This document shows positions 34,784 to 38,140 of a stretch of DNA of 64,000 bases, in pieces. A program made the position numbers and the translations under genes. The stretch is from NCBI GenBank assembly GCA_964607655.1, contig CAZSKX010000001.1, positions 232,939-296,938 of the forward strand. Reading direction: 5' to 3'. How positions within the stretch are numbered: the stretch's first letter is position 1; each line of letters begins with the position of its first letter. The stretch comes from an uncultured Candidatus Saccharibacteria bacterium (GTDB lineage Bacteria > Patescibacteriota > Minisyncoccia > Phycocordibacterales > Phycocordibacteraceae). The notes beneath the pieces are model-generated. The model ran no database searches, was not told the origin of the DNA, and saw only the letters and a program-made list of their open reading frames with translations.

Positions 34784-35154
34784 CATTTGATTATTTAAAT
34801 ATAAGTGTTACCGTGCGGGCAGTCGTGAGGAAGAACGCTACTGCGAGTGTGCGCGAGTACGGGTTGCCTCCTGTTCGACCTCACGACCACTTTCACAGAC
34901 TGATGACTGCCTTCAGGATGTCCTTCGGGACGCTATCGGCCTCGTCATCGGTCCGGGTGGGAGGACGTTGTGGACAATGTGATTCGATACTACGAAGACA
35001 CATCCGTCCTCCCATCCCGTTCTTTCCAAGCTTGCTGGTAACGAGCAGCCTGATGTCTGTGCCGCAGACGATGCAACAGCTGTCACCTCATCAGCACCGA
35101 AGAGACGCCGCTACGTTTGTTCGATAGACCGAACGTTCCATCACCTGTCTCTTC

Positions 35155-35194
35155 AGCCCGGGTTGCGCTTGCGCACCCGGGCTTTTTATTTTAT
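35155..35194 (+). terminator. T1 repeat hairpin with T-run (copy 1)
   Basis: AGCCCGGGTTGCGCTTGCGCACCCGGGCTTTTTATTTTAT. Confidence 0.55.
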
Positions 35195-35475
35195 GTTTCT
35201 GATAGGTTGCGAATAGACGTATCGATACGAGTCTGATAAGACGCCAAGCTCATTGTCTACCTCGCAACCGCCCTTTGGTTGGCCCGGACGATTCTTGGGG
35301 TGTCTTCACGCCGCAAGGAAAAGTGTCCGGCGCCAGCCAACAAGCTCAAGAGAAACGCAGTCGCGGATGGGAATAATCGCAGTTCTACTTGTTTCTCTTG
35401 ATCCTTCGCAAAAACGTAGGAGGACGGGTCCCTAAGGGACGCGGCTGTCAGTTGTTTTTTGCGAGCCGGGCGCGT

Positions 35476-35510
35476 AGCAATACGCGCTCGGTTTTTCTTT
35501 GCCCAAAAAC
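35476..35510 (+). terminator. T2 repeat hairpin with T-run (copy 1)
   Basis: CCGGGCGCGTAGCAATACGCGCTCGGTTTTTCTTT. Confidence 0.5.
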
Positions 35511-35804
35511 ACAGACCATAGTACTGTGGCCGCAGGCGAGAGCACGACGAGACGAAGTGTGTGCCAAACGTGGTACGAGAGATCCGTGAGTCGTGCTCTC
35601 GCCACAGCATGGTTGGCCCGGACGAATGCGCTCATGTCCTTCTGACGTGAGGAGGCCTGTCTGCGGCCAACCGTTTTCTTAGAAGCCTGCTGGTGACGAT
35701 ACAAGCTGTGTTCAAAAATGAACGTTGCGAGAAATGTCACCTCACCAGCTACAAAGAGACGCGAGGCCGTGTGTTCGAAAGAACGTCTGCTCGTTCGTCT
35801 CTCT

Positions 35805-35843
35805 AGCCCGGGTCGCGCTTGCGCACCCGGGCTTTTTGTTTTA
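35805..35843 (+). terminator. T1 repeat hairpin with T-run (copy 2)
   Basis: AGCCCGGGTCGCGCTTGCGCACCCGGGCTTTTTGTTTTA. Confidence 0.55.
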
Positions 35844-36114
35844 AGGTCGGTGCAGGTTGCGAAGGACGCTGCCTGTCTTGTATTCGACGGATCACGATCT
35901 GTCCTCCGCAACCGCCTCTTGGTTGGCCCGGGCGCTGGCCAGTGTGTCTTAATGACGAAAGTTCGAGTGCCTGTGGCCAACCGTTCTTTTAACACTTGCT
36001 AGTGACGACGTGTTCACTGTCCTTCTTGGGACGTTAGTAGTAATGCCACTCACATAGCGACAGAGACGCTGGAGGGAATGTTCCTATAGGAACGACTTTT
36101 CACGCGTCTCGGCA

Positions 36115-36150
36115 CCGGGCGCGTAGCAATACGCGCCCGGTTTGATATTT
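36115..36150 (+). terminator. T2 repeat hairpin with T-run (copy 2), abutting the IS110-like element
   Basis: CCGGGCGCGTAGCAATACGCGCCCGGTTTGATATTT. Its T-run supplies the first bases of a TTGACA box. Confidence 0.5.
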
Positions 36151-36177
36151 TGACACATGCGAATAACGTGATATATT
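36150..36177 (+). promoter_or_regulatory. sigma70-like promoter TTGACA-N16-TATATT at the left junction of the IS110-like element
   Basis: Read directly: TTGACA at 36150-36155 and TATATT at 36172-36177. The -35 box straddles the junction between the T2 repeat T-run and element-specific AT-rich sequence. Confidence 0.5.
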
Positions 36178-37828
36178 CACAAACGAGCGAATGTTCGCTT
36201 GGTCTGGACGACTTTAGGGCTGCTCAATTGAGCGCAACTACATGTGTTCAGGCTCTGTACAACCCATGTCTGCAAGGACGTCATAAAACGATCAGAAGGA
36301 GAAGGTGAACAGTGAGCAGAATCATCGGCATCCTACATCGCGTCAAGCGAACAGCCGATGGTGAGGCGCGCCCGACGCGTGTCTTCATCATCGACCTCAT
36401 CGCCGACGGCCATTCCACCATCGCGTACGATCTCGTGACCGAGACCGACGAGCTCGACTTCCTGATGGGACGATTCCCTGCCGAGTACGCGCCGCTCGAT
36501 GGCGACTCGCTCGCAGAGGGCGTCCTCCCACGCCACCACAAGTGGCGTACGGTGAGGAAGAACGAGGACGTGACGCAGCTCCCGCCCGCGCGCCTGCGCA
36601 CGGTCGACGGAAAGACCCAGGTCGCCATCGGCTACCCGATGGAGGTCGACGGACTCTTTCCCGGCGACCGCGTCGCGATGGGGCTCGGCGGATCGGGAGA
36701 CCGGTTCGCCTACGCGCTCTCGCGTCGCGGTGAAGCGATCGGGGCTACGGTCTACCGTATCCCCCCGTTCGTGCTCAAGGCGCATCGCGACGAGAAGTCG
36801 AAGGACAACGACGCCGCGCTCTTGGCGAAGCTCCTCGAGAGCTCTTCGGAGCTCTTCGCGGAGATGACGCCACGTGAACGGTCGCTCGTGCAGGTCGTCG
36901 AGGCCTATCGAGCCCGCCAGGACGGGCTGAAGGACCGGATCGCCTGCGAACAGCGGATCCGCCAGCGACTCATCGGGAAGATCTTCCTGAACGCCGATGG
37001 GTACTACCCCGAGGGAGAGGTCGAGGATCTCTACAAGGAGAAGGAGGCATCGGACGCTCATCACGCGCACCTCCTGAAGGAGGAGCGCGAGCTCAACGCC
37101 GAGCTGGCCAAGGCCGTGCGTGCTCTGGACGTGTGGAAGCACGTCTTCGAACCGATGGAGGGCTGCGGTGAACGGCTCGCTGCCGGGATCATCGCGGCCG
37201 TGGGCGATGTGCGCCGTTTCGCGACGAAGCACAAGTTCAAGGCCTTCCTCGGCGTGCACGTTCTTCGGGGCGGCAAGCACGGCGAGGTCCCGACGGAGCG
37301 ACAGTTCCCGCGTCGTCGTGCTGGATCGGTGGCCAACTGGTCGGCCGACGCCCGCCAGTCGCTCTACCTGCTCGTCGAGCAGGCGAACAAGCGACCCGAG
37401 TCCTTCTGGGGCAAGAAGCTCCGGGAGTACAAGGTCAAGCTGCGCGAGAAGCACCCGGTGACCGAGTGCAAGCAGTGCGGCGTCGCCTGGGAGGAGTGCG
37501 AGGAGCAGAAGTCGCACACGCGACGGTACTTCGATGGGCACATCCACAAGATGGCCAGCTGGAGGACTGCCACGAAGATCGCGGAAGCGATCTACCGCGA
37601 CTGGTGGAAGCTCGAACGCGAGCTCGCGGCCAATCCCGACGCGGAGCAGAAGGCGGCCTAAAAGGCTGCCACAGAACGAGTCATCGACTGTACGCAAGTA
37701 CGCTGGTCAGTTTGTTCTGTGGCAGAAACGATGACCGCACGGGAGAGAGGAGGACGCAGTAGCTGGCGTGCACCACGCACGGTCAACTCGATGTTCTCCT
37801 CTCTCCCAAAGATTTTTGATCGAGAATG
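36151..37828 (+). mobile_element. IS110-family insertion sequence (DEDD bridge-recombinase type) with structured non-coding ends
   Basis: Carries the 449-aa IS110-like transposase ORF. It has an AT-rich 160-nt left end with a promoter and small hairpins. The 167-nt right end has two long perfect stems (CTGCCACAGAAC...GTTCTGTGGCAG at 37667-37728; GGGAGAGAGGAG...CTCCTCTCTCCC at 37741-37808). The element interrupts the repeat-module array between a T2 hairpin and the next module start. Boundaries are +-30 nt. Confidence 0.6.
36312..37661 (+). CDS. IS110-family transposase/recombinase (RuvC-like DEDD N-domain + C-terminal Transposase_20-like domain)
   Basis: GTG start preceded by AAGGAGAAGG. N-terminal domain elements VFIIDLIADG, VAIGYPMEVDG and VYRIPPFVLKAHRDEKSKDNDAALLAKLL fit the IS110 DEDD pattern. 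C-terminal GCGERLAAGIIAAVGDVRRFATKHKFKAFLGV fits the IS110/IS116/IS902 C-domain. The fully overlapping 454-aa minus-strand ORF is a GC artefact. Confidence 0.7.
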   Translation: MSRIIGILHRVKRTADGEARPTRVFIIDLIADGHSTIAYDLVTETDELDFLMGRFPAEYAPLDGDSLAEGVLPRHHKWRTVRKNEDVTQLPPARLRTVDGKTQVAIGYPMEVDGLFPGDRVAMGLGGSGDRFAYALSRRGEAIGATVYRIPPFVLKAHRDEKSKDNDAALLAKLLESSSELFAEMTPRERSLVQVVEAYRARQDGLKDRIACEQRIRQRLIGKIFLNADGYYPEGEVEDLYKEKEASDAHHAHLLKEERELNAELAKAVRALDVWKHVFEPMEGCGERLAAGIIAAVGDVRRFATKHKFKAFLGVHVLRGGKHGEVPTERQFPRRRAGSVANWSADARQSLYLLVEQANKRPESFWGKKLREYKVKLREKHPVTECKQCGVAWEECEEQKSHTRRYFDGHIHKMASWRTATKIAEAIYRDWWKLERELAANPDAEQKAA

Positions 37829-38140
37829 TTGCTGATGACGATGCGCCGTATGTTCGCGAAGCGAACGTTACTGCCAGTGTTATCGCATCAGCAATGAAAA
37901 GACGCCAGCTGACGTGTTCGCAAGAACGATACAGCTCGTGTCTTTCTAGCCCGGGTTGCGCTTGCGCACCCGGGCTTTTTGTTTTATGTTCGAGGCAGGT
38001 TGCAAGGGACGCTGCCTGTCTTGTATTCGATATTCGACGGATCACGATCTGTTCTCCGCAACCGCCTCTTGGTTGGCTCGACGATCTTTGGTTTGTTCTC
38101 ACCGAGAACGAAAGGAGGCATGTTCGACGCCAACCATTCA
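37829..38140. repeat. repeat module copy 4 (T1 hairpin at 37948-37988 and GGTTGGCTCGACG...CGACGCCAACC hairpin at 38060-38130)
   Basis: About 80% identical by eye to modules at 35686-35940 and 35031-35300. Confidence 0.65.

What the first reader, a model, noticed from the sequence alone, without database searches (positions are those of the whole stretch)
34790..38140. About 3.3 kb of non-coding DNA built from repeated hairpin/terminator modules between tRNA-Leu and the giant gene
- At least four copies of a ~250-bp module are present: module start CTTGCTGGTGACGA-like, an internal GTCACCTCA(C/T)CAGC…AGACGC block, then terminator-like hairpin T1, or alternative hairpin T2.
- Each module is followed by a long imperfect palindrome GGTTGGCCCGG…N40-50…GGCCAACC.
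- No credible ORFs: the track ORFs here run straight through the terminator hairpins, and protein-level similarity between them simply mirrors nucleotide similarity.

The region may be one of the following:
- an array of small terminated ncRNAs;
- REP-like or integron-attC-like recombination targets, since IS110-family elements are known to target such palindromes and one is inserted here;
- degraded miniature elements.

Its density of hairpins in a compact genome is unusual.
Basis: seen in the sequence. Interest (0 to 1): 0.55.

Follow-up and report, generated by a model that had tools for sequence, protein, structure and literature searches.

The report
TIGR-Tas guide-RNA array, not junk hairpins
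The hairpin-rich stretch is a tandem array of about 24 small guide-RNA genes surrounding the gene for their RNA-guided DNA-binding protein (a TIGR-Tas system of the kind recently described in tiny parasitic "CPR" bacteria), so it is a good example of a known system, not a new one.

Summary
The repeats are real, but they are neither REP or MITE debris nor targets of an inserted IS110.

- **Protein.** The 449-aa ORF at 36312-37661 passes NCBIfam's TIGR-Tas endonuclease model (132 bits, cutoff 100) and fails the IS110 model (53.6, cutoff 140). Its best sequence and fold matches among solved structures are TasR (9MTY).
- **Units.** All 24 hairpins I defined between 34822 and 38135 (+ strand) follow one plan: outer stem ending RAC, G-N10-U, inner hairpin GUYC…GRAC, G-N10-U, outer stem. 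That gives two 10-nt spacers flanked by box C/D-like motifs.
- **Structure support.** The stems covary. Paralogous stems are 78% identical; their spacers are 34% identical.
- **Cassettes.** Units sit in cassettes of 4-5, each closed by an intrinsic terminator.
- **Specificity.** A covariance model built from the units finds nothing else in the 64 kb. It finds 15-38 units flanking tasR in each of five other loci of candidate phyla radiation (CPR) bacteria.
- **Likely activity.** The first RuvC catalytic Asp is missing. This matches the published dead-RuvC CPR TasR clade, whose members act as RNA-guided repressors.
- **Targets.** Natural targets were not found.

Verdict: new member of a known kind, moderate interest.

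The parts
34702..34784 (+). tRNA-Leu(CAA), upstream flank of the array (not part of the system)
   Evidence: ARAGORN and Rfam tRNA at 54.5 bits. No terminator lies between it and unit U01, 38 nt downstream. The segment is inverted in the relative L001.
34822..35192 (+). Cassette 1: five stem-loop tigRNA units plus terminator T1 (35155-35190)
   Evidence: Units: U01 34822-34887, U02 34898-34953, U03 34955-35017, U04 35034-35095, U05 35099-35154. Unit parsing; covariance-model hits at E 1.9e-6 to 1.2e-3; terminator.
35205..35502 (+). Cassette 2: four units plus terminator T2 (35463-35500)
   Evidence: Units: U06 35205-35269, U07 35277-35341, U08 35346-35401, U09 35405-35465. The spacer pairs of U07 and U08 are 19/20 identical in L001.
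35535..35844 (+). Cassette 3: four units plus terminator T1 (35805-35842)
   Evidence: Units: U10 35535-35603, U11 35611-35672, U12 35689-35749, U13 35755-35802. The spacer pairs of U10 (20/20) and U13 (19/20) are conserved in L001.
35855..36152 (+). Cassette 4: four units plus terminator T2 (36114-36150)
   Evidence: Units: U14 35855-35913, U15 35921-35982, U16 35998-36058, U17 36062-36111. The spacer pairs of U16 (20/20) and U17 (19/20) are conserved in L001.
36150..36177 (+). Sigma-70-like promoter TTGACA-16-TATATT with an upstream TG
   Evidence: Matches 11 of 12 consensus positions. The same hexamers and spacing occur at the same place in L001, 2767-2794. It lies upstream of U18 and tasR.
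36201..36254 (+). Unit U18, a single tigRNA unit between the promoter and tasR
   Evidence: Covariance-model hit at 34.9 bits, E 3e-6. Fold z-score -3.5. L001 has a unit in the same position, 2821-2868.
36312..37661 (+). tasR: 449-aa TIGR-associated protein with a RuvC-like N-terminal domain (carrying a ~77-aa insertion), a coiled coil and a Nop-type C-terminal domain
   Evidence: - NCBIfam NF052498 TIGR_Tas_endo scores 132 bits against a cutoff of 100; the IS110 model scores 53.6 against 140.
- The best PDB sequence hit is 9MTY TasR at 2.6e-5, against IS621 at 0.17.
- The AlphaFold2 model has pLDDT 87, and its best fold hit is 9MTY at E 3.5e-11.
- There are 524 homologues; those that carry a source name are CPR/Patescibacteria.
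- Position 8, the first RuvC Asp position, is L here and R in the family consensus.
37666..37987 (+). Cassette 5: four units plus terminator T1 (37948-37985); it starts 5 nt after the tasR stop codon
   Evidence: Units: U19 37666-37725, U20 37741-37807, U21 37831-37892, U22 37898-37945. The U19 fold z-score is -5.3.
37998..38250 (+). Cassette 6: two units, a decayed third unit (~38152-38199), and terminator T3 (38208-38250)
   Evidence: Units: U23 37998-38063, U24 38071-38135. The weak covariance-model hit at 38152-38199 scores 13 bits, E 1.3, and aligns with the U12-type unit of other cassettes. U23 carries the same spacer pair as U14.

Best explanation
This is a chromosomal TIGR-Tas locus of the stem-loop type, belonging to the clade found in CPR (candidate phyla radiation, Patescibacteria) bacteria.

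**Shown**
- The + strand encodes tasR and about 24 guide-RNA (tigRNA) genes in six cassettes.
- Each unit is a hairpin whose large internal loop is split by a short inner hairpin into two 10-nt spacers.
- Each spacer is bounded 5' by ..RAC-G (box C-like) and 3' by U-GUY.. (box D-like, the 'UG' seen in published systems).
- The first canonical catalytic Asp of the RuvC-like domain is missing.

**Inferred from published TIGR-Tas work**
- Cassettes are transcribed and cut into single units.
- Each unit is bound by a TasR dimer through the Nop-type domain.
- Spacer A pairs with one strand and spacer B with the other strand of an 18-20-bp DNA site.
- Because the RuvC site looks dead, the complex most likely binds DNA and blocks transcription rather than cutting it, as shown experimentally for the related protein CsTasR.
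For: **Protein**
- TIGR_Tas_endo is above its curated cutoff; IS110 is below its cutoff.
- The closest solved structure by sequence and by fold is TasR 9MTY.
- The predicted topology has a ~77-aa helix-plus-sheet insertion between strand 3 (33-41) and strand 4 (120-124). This matches the ~80-aa insertion described for CsTasR.
- The family consensus MxRIIGIRHR has R at position 8, the position reported as R8 in CsTasR.

**RNA**
- 24 units share one plan. In 21 of the 24 both spacer intervals are 12 nt long (G-N10-U).
- In the window's units 90% of stem cells are paired, with 57 double-sided changes against 16 in shuffles.
- In units from other loci 96% are paired, with 132 double-sided changes against 29.
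- Paralogous stems are 78% identical; spacers are 34% identical.

**Specificity and conservation**
- The covariance model finds nothing else in the 64 kb.
- It finds 15-38 same-strand units flanking tasR in L001-L005, where TasR is 47-84% identical to the window's TasR.
- Terminators and the promoter are conserved in L001.

**Literature**
- Stem-loop arrays, the CPR dead-RuvC TasR clade, 10-nt spacers, an inner 5-bp stem, and repressor activity are all described in PMC12045711 and bioRxiv 10.64898/2026.09.09.750476.
Against: - No expression or processing data exist for this locus.
- No natural target was identified. Nothing in the window matches at >= 17/20 beyond chance. Only a few unconvincing exact 20-mer hits appear in viral contigs.
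- RuvC inactivity is inferred from an alignment and a predicted fold, not from a residue-level superposition. An invariant Asp (D167) at the fourth catalytic position is retained.
- The CUU processing motif reported at stem bases is present upstream of only 6 of 24 units.
- Only one sigma-70-like promoter is detectable, so how the terminator-closed upstream cassettes are transcribed is unexplained.
Confidence: 0.9

Rival explanations
1. This is the same TIGR-Tas locus, but it acts as a nuclease-based defence or inter-element competition system. TasR would cut DNA of phages or other mobile elements that match both spacers.
For: - Active TasR and TasH nucleases exist.
- Paralogous spacers are as different as random sequence.
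- Some orthologous spacers diverge faster than their stems: 73% against 92%.
- Two spacer pairs have exact 20-bp matches in viral contigs, one of them inside a phage tail-gene block.
Against: - The first RuvC Asp is replaced across the family, as in the experimentally inactive CsTasR.
- 7 of 24 spacer pairs are 95-100% conserved between two genomes whose array DNA is 72-80% identical. That fits stable targets better than an arms race.
- The viral hits are about what chance gives over 8 scans. No second spacer matches any of those contigs.
Confidence: 0.15
2. This is an IS110-family insertion sequence whose recombinase uses a bridge RNA, inserted into a field of REP-like or attC-like palindromes that serve as its targets.
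For: - Weak Pfam hits to Transposase_20 and DEDD_Tnp_IS110.
- The second-best fold matches are IS621 and ISCro4.
- Databases label homologues 'transposase'.
Against: - The IS110 NCBIfam model scores 53.6 against a cutoff of 140, while the TIGR-Tas model passes.
- The first DEDD Asp is absent.
- The gene sits in the same syntenic position in L001: ParB, tRNA-Leu, array, tasR, array, giant gene.
- There are 24 dual-spacer units instead of one two-loop bridge RNA.
- Units always flank the homologous gene in five other loci and occur nowhere else in the window.
Confidence: 0.02
3. The units are box C/D-like guides for RNA, not DNA. They would direct TasR, or a recruited enzyme, to rRNA or tRNA, an intermediate toward snoRNP-type RNA modification as speculated in the literature for this clade.
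For: - Faure et al. note that the CPR dead-RuvC clade might be such an intermediate.
- The guides are conserved between genomes.
- No DNA target was found.
Against: - CsTasR of this clade binds double-stranded DNA with both spacers and represses transcription.
- No methyltransferase or other partner gene is conserved next to tasR in L001-L005.
- No same-strand two-site match occurs in the window, although no rRNA is in the window to test.
Confidence: 0.05
4. The region is a set of independent small regulatory RNAs or decayed miniature transposable elements, unrelated to the neighbouring gene.
For: Cassettes end in strong intrinsic terminators. No Rfam family matches.
Against: - The units co-occur strictly with tasR homologues in six loci with different neighbours.
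- The units have the dual-spacer anatomy.
- There are no dispersed copies.
Confidence: 0.02

Closest known systems
Stem-loop TIGR arrays with catalytically dead TasR of CPR bacteria (e.g. CsTasR of Candidatus Staskawiczbacteria; Faure et al. 2025, PMC12045711; Xu et al. 2026, bioRxiv 10.64898/2026.09.09.750476)
   Same: - TasR has an expanded RuvC-like domain with a ~77-80-aa insertion between strands 3 and 4, and the first catalytic position is not Asp.
- Arrays lie both upstream and downstream of tasR on the same strand.
- Units are hairpins with two 10-nt spacers, a short inner stem between the spacers, and a 'UG' box D.
- The host is a CPR bacterium.
   Different: - The protein is shorter (449 aa against 547 aa).
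- Position 8 is Leu rather than Arg.
- Box C is ACG here, against CUU or CCA in the published examples.
- The CUU stem-base motif is present at only 6 of 24 units.
- The array is built from 4-unit cassettes, each with its own intrinsic terminator. Stems are conserved between cassettes, whereas the published description stresses stem divergence within arrays.
Dual-repeat TIGR-TasR (TaTasR, PDB 9MTY)
   Same: Best solved-structure match by sequence and by fold. Same two-spacer logic, with box C/D motifs bound by a Nop-type domain.
   Different: TaTasR uses 36-nt units with fixed edge and loop repeats and 9-nt spacers, and it has an active RuvC (D11). Here the units are 48-69-nt hairpins with variable stems and 10-nt spacers, and the first Asp is missing.
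IS110/IS1111 insertion sequences with bridge (seek) RNA (IS621, PDB 8WT6)
   Same: Homologous protein architecture: RuvC-like domain, coiled coil and RNA-binding C-terminal domain. The guide RNA has loops whose two sides pair with opposite DNA strands.
   Different: There is one bridge RNA per IS110 element, with a target loop and a donor loop, and the element is mobile and multicopy with an active DEDD tetrad. Here there are 24 single-loop guides, a fixed syntenic position, a failed IS110 family score, and no first Asp.
Archaeal and eukaryotic box C/D s(no)RNAs with Nop5/Nop56/58
   Same: Two guide segments, each between a box C-type and a box D-type motif. A Nop-domain protein dimer bridged by a coiled coil.
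   Different: No RUGAUGA/CUGA k-turn motifs. No fibrillarin or L7Ae partner is evident. The published relatives target DNA, not RNA.
CRISPR arrays
   Same: A tandem array of conserved scaffold and variable guide segments next to the effector gene.
   Different: Split 10+10-nt guides inside hairpins. No cas genes and no known spacer-acquisition machinery.

Membership tests
TIGR-Tas system | A Tas protein with a Nop-type RNA-binding C-terminal domain | tested here: met
   NF052498 scores 132 bits against a cutoff of 100, over aa 198-431. The best PDB sequence hit is 9MTY. The best fold hits are 9MTY, then IS621, then TasH.
TIGR-Tas system | A tandem array of guide units next to tas, on the same strand | tested here: met
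   18 units lie upstream and 6 downstream of tasR, all on the + strand. The same arrangement is seen in L001-L005.
TIGR-Tas system | Each unit carries two short (8-12 nt) spacers, each flanked by box C-like and box D-like motifs | tested here: met
   Counts across the 24 units:

| Motif position | First half of unit | Second half of unit |
|---|---|---|
| C | 24/24 | 24/24 |
| G (after the C) | 23/24 | 24/24 |
| U | 21/24 | 19/24 |
| G (after the U) | 24/24 | 24/24 |

In 21 of the 24 units both intervals are G-N10-U.
TIGR-Tas system | Spacers are variable while the scaffold is conserved | tested here: met
   Among paralogous units, stems are 78% identical and spacers 34%.
TIGR-Tas system | The array is transcribed and processed into single-unit tigRNAs bound by Tas | not testable with these tools
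   No RNA data are available. Terminators and one promoter are predicted only.
TIGR-Tas system | Tandem-spacer recognition of a DNA target: spacer A on one strand, spacer B on the other | tested here: inconclusive
   No match at >= 17/20 in the window beyond chance. There are 0 hits in metagenome contigs for U16. Exact 20-mer hits for U13 and U08 in viral contigs are about chance level.
Stem-loop sub-type of TIGR arrays | Palindromic stems in place of edge repeats, supported as base-paired | tested here: met
   In the window's units 90% of cells are paired, with 57 double-sided changes against 16 in shuffles. In other loci the figures are 96% and 132 against 29. Fold z-scores range from -3.5 to -5.6.
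CPR dead-RuvC TasR clade | Canonical RuvC catalytic residues are replaced (R8 and V126 in CsTasR) | tested here: met
   L8 here, and R in the family consensus, at the end of strand 1. This rests on alignment and predicted fold only. Invariant D167 is retained.
CPR dead-RuvC TasR clade | A large insertion between RuvC strands 3 and 4 | tested here: met
   In the model, residues 42-119 form a short helix plus a beta sheet between E33-41 and E120-124. This matches the published description.
CPR dead-RuvC TasR clade | tigRNA with a short inner stem between two 10-nt spacers | tested here: met
   The inner helix GUYC/GRAC is 88% paired with covariation. Spacers are 10 nt.
CPR dead-RuvC TasR clade | Conserved CUU at the base of the stem (processing site) | tested here: not met
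   CTT lies within 5 nt upstream of only 6 of 24 units.
IS110-family insertion sequence | Protein reaches the curated IS110 family score | tested here: not met
   NF033542 scores 53.6 against 140. NF051857 scores 21.5 against 180.
IS110-family insertion sequence | Intact DEDD catalytic tetrad | tested here: not met
   The first Asp position is Leu here and Arg in the family.
IS110-family insertion sequence | One bridge RNA with target and donor loops in the non-coding end | tested here: not met
   Instead there are 24 single-loop dual-spacer units in cassettes on both sides of the gene.
IS110-family insertion sequence | Mobile: variable location, multiple copies | tested here: not met
   A single copy in 64 kb. 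The flanks are the same in L001, where the protein is 84% identical.
REP / MITE-type dispersed repeats | Copies scattered through intergenic regions of the genome | tested here: not met
   The covariance model gives no hit at E < 1 outside 34831-38199 in 64 kb. Only 64 kb of a contig of at least 464 kb could be examined.
Box C/D sRNA | Box C RUGAUGA and box D CUGA forming k-turns | tested here: not met
   The motifs here are RAC-G and U-GUY. No Rfam hit at the gathering threshold or at E <= 5.

The most novel reading that the evidence does not exclude
The array is a heritable, chromosomally fixed library of guides with two classes of spacer.
- One class is held nearly invariant between related genomes: 7 pairs, 97% identical, in array DNA that is 72-80% identical.
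- The other class is replaced wholesale inside conserved scaffolds.

This would mean a native RNA-guided transcription-control network in a CPR bacterium, directed at its own or its host's genes. New guides would arise by duplication of terminator-closed 4-unit cassettes followed by spacer replacement.

The exact 20-bp matches of two conserved guides to viral contigs occur only in the A+rc(B) geometry. If real, they would also reveal the natural targets and the half-site order for this clade.
Probability: 0.15. Interest if true: 0.7.

Novelty: new member of a known kind. Interest (0 to 1): 0.38.

Why it matters
TIGR-Tas systems were described only in 2025-2026. Their natural targets, biological role and mode of spacer turnover are still open questions.

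This locus is a clean chromosomal example. It has 24 guides, a syntenic relative, and cassette-level repeats. That makes it a good substrate for asking which guides are conserved and what they match in the full genome, in the host, and in phages.

For annotation, it shows that a block which looks like hairpin junk next to an 'IS110 transposase' should be read as one RNA-guided system. It also shows that gene callers place spurious ORFs through such arrays.

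Tried and rejected
- **Rfam.** Searches at gathering threshold and at E <= 5 found no family in the region apart from the tRNA.
- **Loose hairpin and motif scans.** These were too noisy to enumerate units and were replaced by a covariance model.
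- **Coding reading.** Five ORFs crossing the hairpins have no Pfam match.
- **Self-target search in the window.**
  - Both opposite-strand geometries with gaps of -2 to +3 gave only 3 hits at >= 17/20. All three lie inside the array, and shuffled spacers give 0.9 on average.
  - The same-strand geometry gave only the array's own antisense.
- **Target search in public collections.**
  - U16 20-mers in both geometries: 0 in viral and 0 in metagenome contigs.
  - U13 and U17 in geometry I: 0.
  - U17 and U10 in geometry II: 0.
  - U13 in geometry II: 4 contigs, in 3 unrelated coding contexts. All read E-A/T-V-N-E-Q; the one contig measured has GC 64%. I judged this a codon-composition coincidence.
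  - U08 in geometry II: 1 contig, inside a tail-module gene. This is within chance over 8 scans, and no second spacer matches.
- **Half-site order.** I tried to read it from three papers, but the text does not state it.
- **Source contig.** Look-up of the source contig through the exact protein failed.

Full report
**What is in the sequence**

There are four copies of a module beginning CTTGCTGGTGACGA. There are two recurring terminator hairpins, T1 three times and T2 twice, plus a third terminator T3. There are four GGTTGGCC...GGCCAACC palindromes. About 1.35 kb of the stretch is not non-coding: 36312-37661 is a 449-aa ORF.

**The protein**

- Pfam gives only weak IS110-type hits.
- NCBIfam places the protein above the curated cutoff of NF052498, 'TIGR-Tas system RNA-guided endonuclease' (132 bits against 100, residues 198-431).
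- It falls far below the IS110 equivalogs (53.6 against 140).
- Among solved structures the best sequence match is 9MTY, the TIGR-TasR complex (E 2.6e-5). IS621 follows at E 0.17.
- An AlphaFold2 model built on 28 homologues (pLDDT 87.3, pTM 0.80) finds 9MTY first (E 3.5e-11), then the IS110 recombinases IS621 and ISCro4, then TasH.
- The search returned 524 homologues. Those that carry a source name come from CPR (candidate phyla radiation, Patescibacteria) bacteria and are mostly labelled 'transposase' or 'hypothetical'.
- An identical protein is on record on a 464,554-bp NCBI contig.

**The RNA unit**

Read against the published description of stem-loop TIGR arrays (PMC12045711; bioRxiv 10.64898/2026.09.09.750476), every hairpin in the region resolves into one plan:

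1. an outer stem ending in R-A-C;
2. G-N10-U;
3. an inner hairpin GUYC-loop-GRAC;
4. G-N10-U;
5. the outer stem beginning G-U-Y.

I defined 24 units (U01-U24, 34822-38135, + strand). In 21 of them both spacer intervals are exactly 12 nt.

The fixed positions are nearly invariant. In the first half of the unit, C is 24/24, the following G 23/24, U 21/24 and G 24/24. In the second half, C is 24/24, G 24/24, U 19/24 and G 24/24.

I picked these units knowing the pattern, so I ran several checks.

- **Strict scan.** A strict mechanical scan found six such sites on the + strand, all within 35099-37945. It found three weaker ones on the - strand elsewhere, at 40729-40679 (two overlapping calls) and 24632-24583.
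- **Covariation in the window.** Both helices covary: 90% of cells are paired, with 57 double-sided changes against 16 in shuffles, and about 42% paired when the partner is slid.
- **Covariance model in the window.** A model built from the units recovers all 24 at E <= 0.0044. Nothing else in the 64 kb scores E < 1 apart from the antisense of the same near-palindromic units. A 13-bit hit at 38152-38199 aligns as a decayed 25th unit.
- **Fold stability.** Representative units fold with z-scores of -3.5 to -5.6.

**Organisation**

Units are grouped in cassettes of four (five in the first), each closed by an intrinsic terminator.

| Cassette | Units | Terminator |
|---|---|---|
| 1 | U01-05 | T1 |
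| 2 | U06-09 | T2 |
| 3 | U10-13 | T1 |
| 4 | U14-17 | T2 |
| - | sigma-70-like promoter (36150-36177), U18, tasR | - |
| 5 | U19-22 | T1 |
| 6 | U23-24 plus a decayed unit | T3 |

The promoter reads TTGACA-16-TATATT with an upstream TG.

Cassettes are paralogous. Across paralogous units the stems are 78% identical and the spacers 34%, close to random. U14 and U23 are a recent duplicate with identical spacers.

**Related loci**

- **L001.** A JGI metagenome contig encodes a TasR 84% identical to this one. It is syntenic with the window: ParB, tRNA-Leu, array, tasR, array, giant gene. It has the same promoter and the same T1 and T2 terminators, and roughly 35 units that match the model.
- **Four further CPR loci.** In these, TasR is 47-50% identical to the window's. 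They are L002 (Ca. Andersenbacteria), L003 (Parcubacteria), L004 and L005 (Ca. Doudnabacteria). Each carries 15-35 units on the tasR strand. The units are confined to the intergenic DNA on both sides of tasR, and the neighbouring genes are unrelated housekeeping genes.
- **Covariation outside the window.** In units from L001 and L002, 96% of cells are paired, with 132 double-sided changes against 29 in shuffles.

The hairpins therefore travel with tasR, not with a mobile element, and they are not dispersed repeats.

**Spacer evolution**

- Seven of the 24 spacer pairs (U02, U07, U08, U10, U13, U16, U17) are 19-20/20 identical in L001.
- In those seven units the spacers are 97% identical, the stems 90% and the inner hairpins 81%.
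- In three other orthologous units the spacers are only 73% identical against 92% for the stems.
- Overall, array DNA is 72-80% identical between the two loci.
- The remaining units have no spacer counterpart among the units detected in L001.

So some guides look conserved and others replaced. The sample is small.

**Likely mechanism**

The family consensus begins MxRIIGIRHR. Position 8, at the end of predicted strand 1, is where RNase H-fold nucleases carry their first catalytic Asp. It is Arg in most members and Leu here. Xu et al. report R8 and V126 at the first two catalytic positions of CsTasR. [quoted passage not shown]

The model here has a 77-residue helix-plus-sheet insertion between strands at 33-41 and 120-124. 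I therefore assign the locus to that clade. I infer that each unit guides a TasR dimer to an 18-20-bp DNA site through both spacers, and that the result is binding and repression rather than cleavage.

- **Shown here:** the protein family, the RNA anatomy, covariation, co-occurrence with tasR, and loss of the first Asp.
- **Inferred:** transcription, processing, binding, and the functional outcome.

**Targets**

- No site in the window matches any spacer pair in either opposite-strand geometry beyond chance, nor in a same-strand geometry.
- With 24 guides and 64 kb out of a contig of at least 464 kb, about three hits would be expected if every guide had one perfect target on that contig. This is only weak evidence against self-targeting.
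- Exact 20-mers from conserved guides gave no hit in metagenome contigs for U16 in either geometry.
- In viral contigs, hits appeared only in the A+rc(B) geometry.
  - U13 hit four contigs in three unrelated genes. All read E-A/T-V-N-E-Q; the one contig measured has GC 64%.
  - U08 hit one contig, inside a gene of a tail module.
- Roughly one chance hit is expected over the eight scans under uniform composition, and codon bias inflates the U13 count. No second spacer matches any of these contigs.

I treat these as leads, not findings.

**Open points**

- Only one sigma-70-like promoter is detectable, although five cassettes end in strong terminators.
- The CUU stem-base motif reported for stem-loop tigRNAs is present at only 6 of 24 units.
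- Box C here is ACG rather than CUU or CCA.

**Verdict**

The IS110 and REP/MITE readings are wrong. The feature is a new member of a known, recently described kind of system.

Noticed in passing
window 11281-11408 (-): A LOOT RNA (Rfam RF03000) scores 68.5 bits against a gathering score of 46.4. It is unrelated to the finding.
   Followed up: no
window 34658-34792 vs L001 651-785: The 135-bp segment holding tRNA-Leu(CAA) and its upstream region is inverted between the window and the otherwise syntenic relative L001.
   Followed up: partly
window 38830-46713 (+): A giant 2627-aa ORF has an N-terminal HTH_17 domain and a Peptidase_S74 (endosialidase chaperone) domain near residues 2347-2393. 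It is also the downstream neighbour of the array in L001.
   Followed up: no
window 33631-34695 (-): A chromosomal-type ParB (ParB_N, HTH_ParB, ParB_C) lies directly upstream of the tRNA and array. The literature notes ParB-like genes in operons with tasA. Here ParB is on the opposite strand and looks like the housekeeping ParB, so any link is unproven.
   Followed up: no
window 37464-37547 (TasR aa ~385-412): A CxxC...C...H insertion (CKQCGVAWEECEEQKSHTRRYFDGHIH), possibly a zinc-binding element, is present in only some TasR homologues.
   Followed up: no
L001 2296-2895; L003 6405-6602 and 6856-7122; L004 6857-7072 and 7265-7555: Public gene calls place ORFs of 65-199 aa with no Pfam family through the arrays. 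They overlap covariance-model hits and are probably spurious.
   Followed up: partly
L004 2655-3416: An RNase III gene sits immediately upstream of the array in one relative. It may be a coincidence, but the processing enzyme for stem-loop tigRNAs is unknown.
   Followed up: no
window 35855-35913 and 37998-38063: Units U14 and U23 carry identical spacer pairs. U23 has a 7-nt tandem duplication (tattcga) in its inner loop. This marks a recent cassette duplication.
   Followed up: yes
L010 1366-1385 (IMGVR_UViG_3300009687_000442): There is an exact 20-bp match to U08 spacer A plus the reverse complement of spacer B. It lies inside a 369-aa gene next to tail-fibre and tape-measure genes of a viral contig. 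It is within chance expectation.
   Followed up: partly
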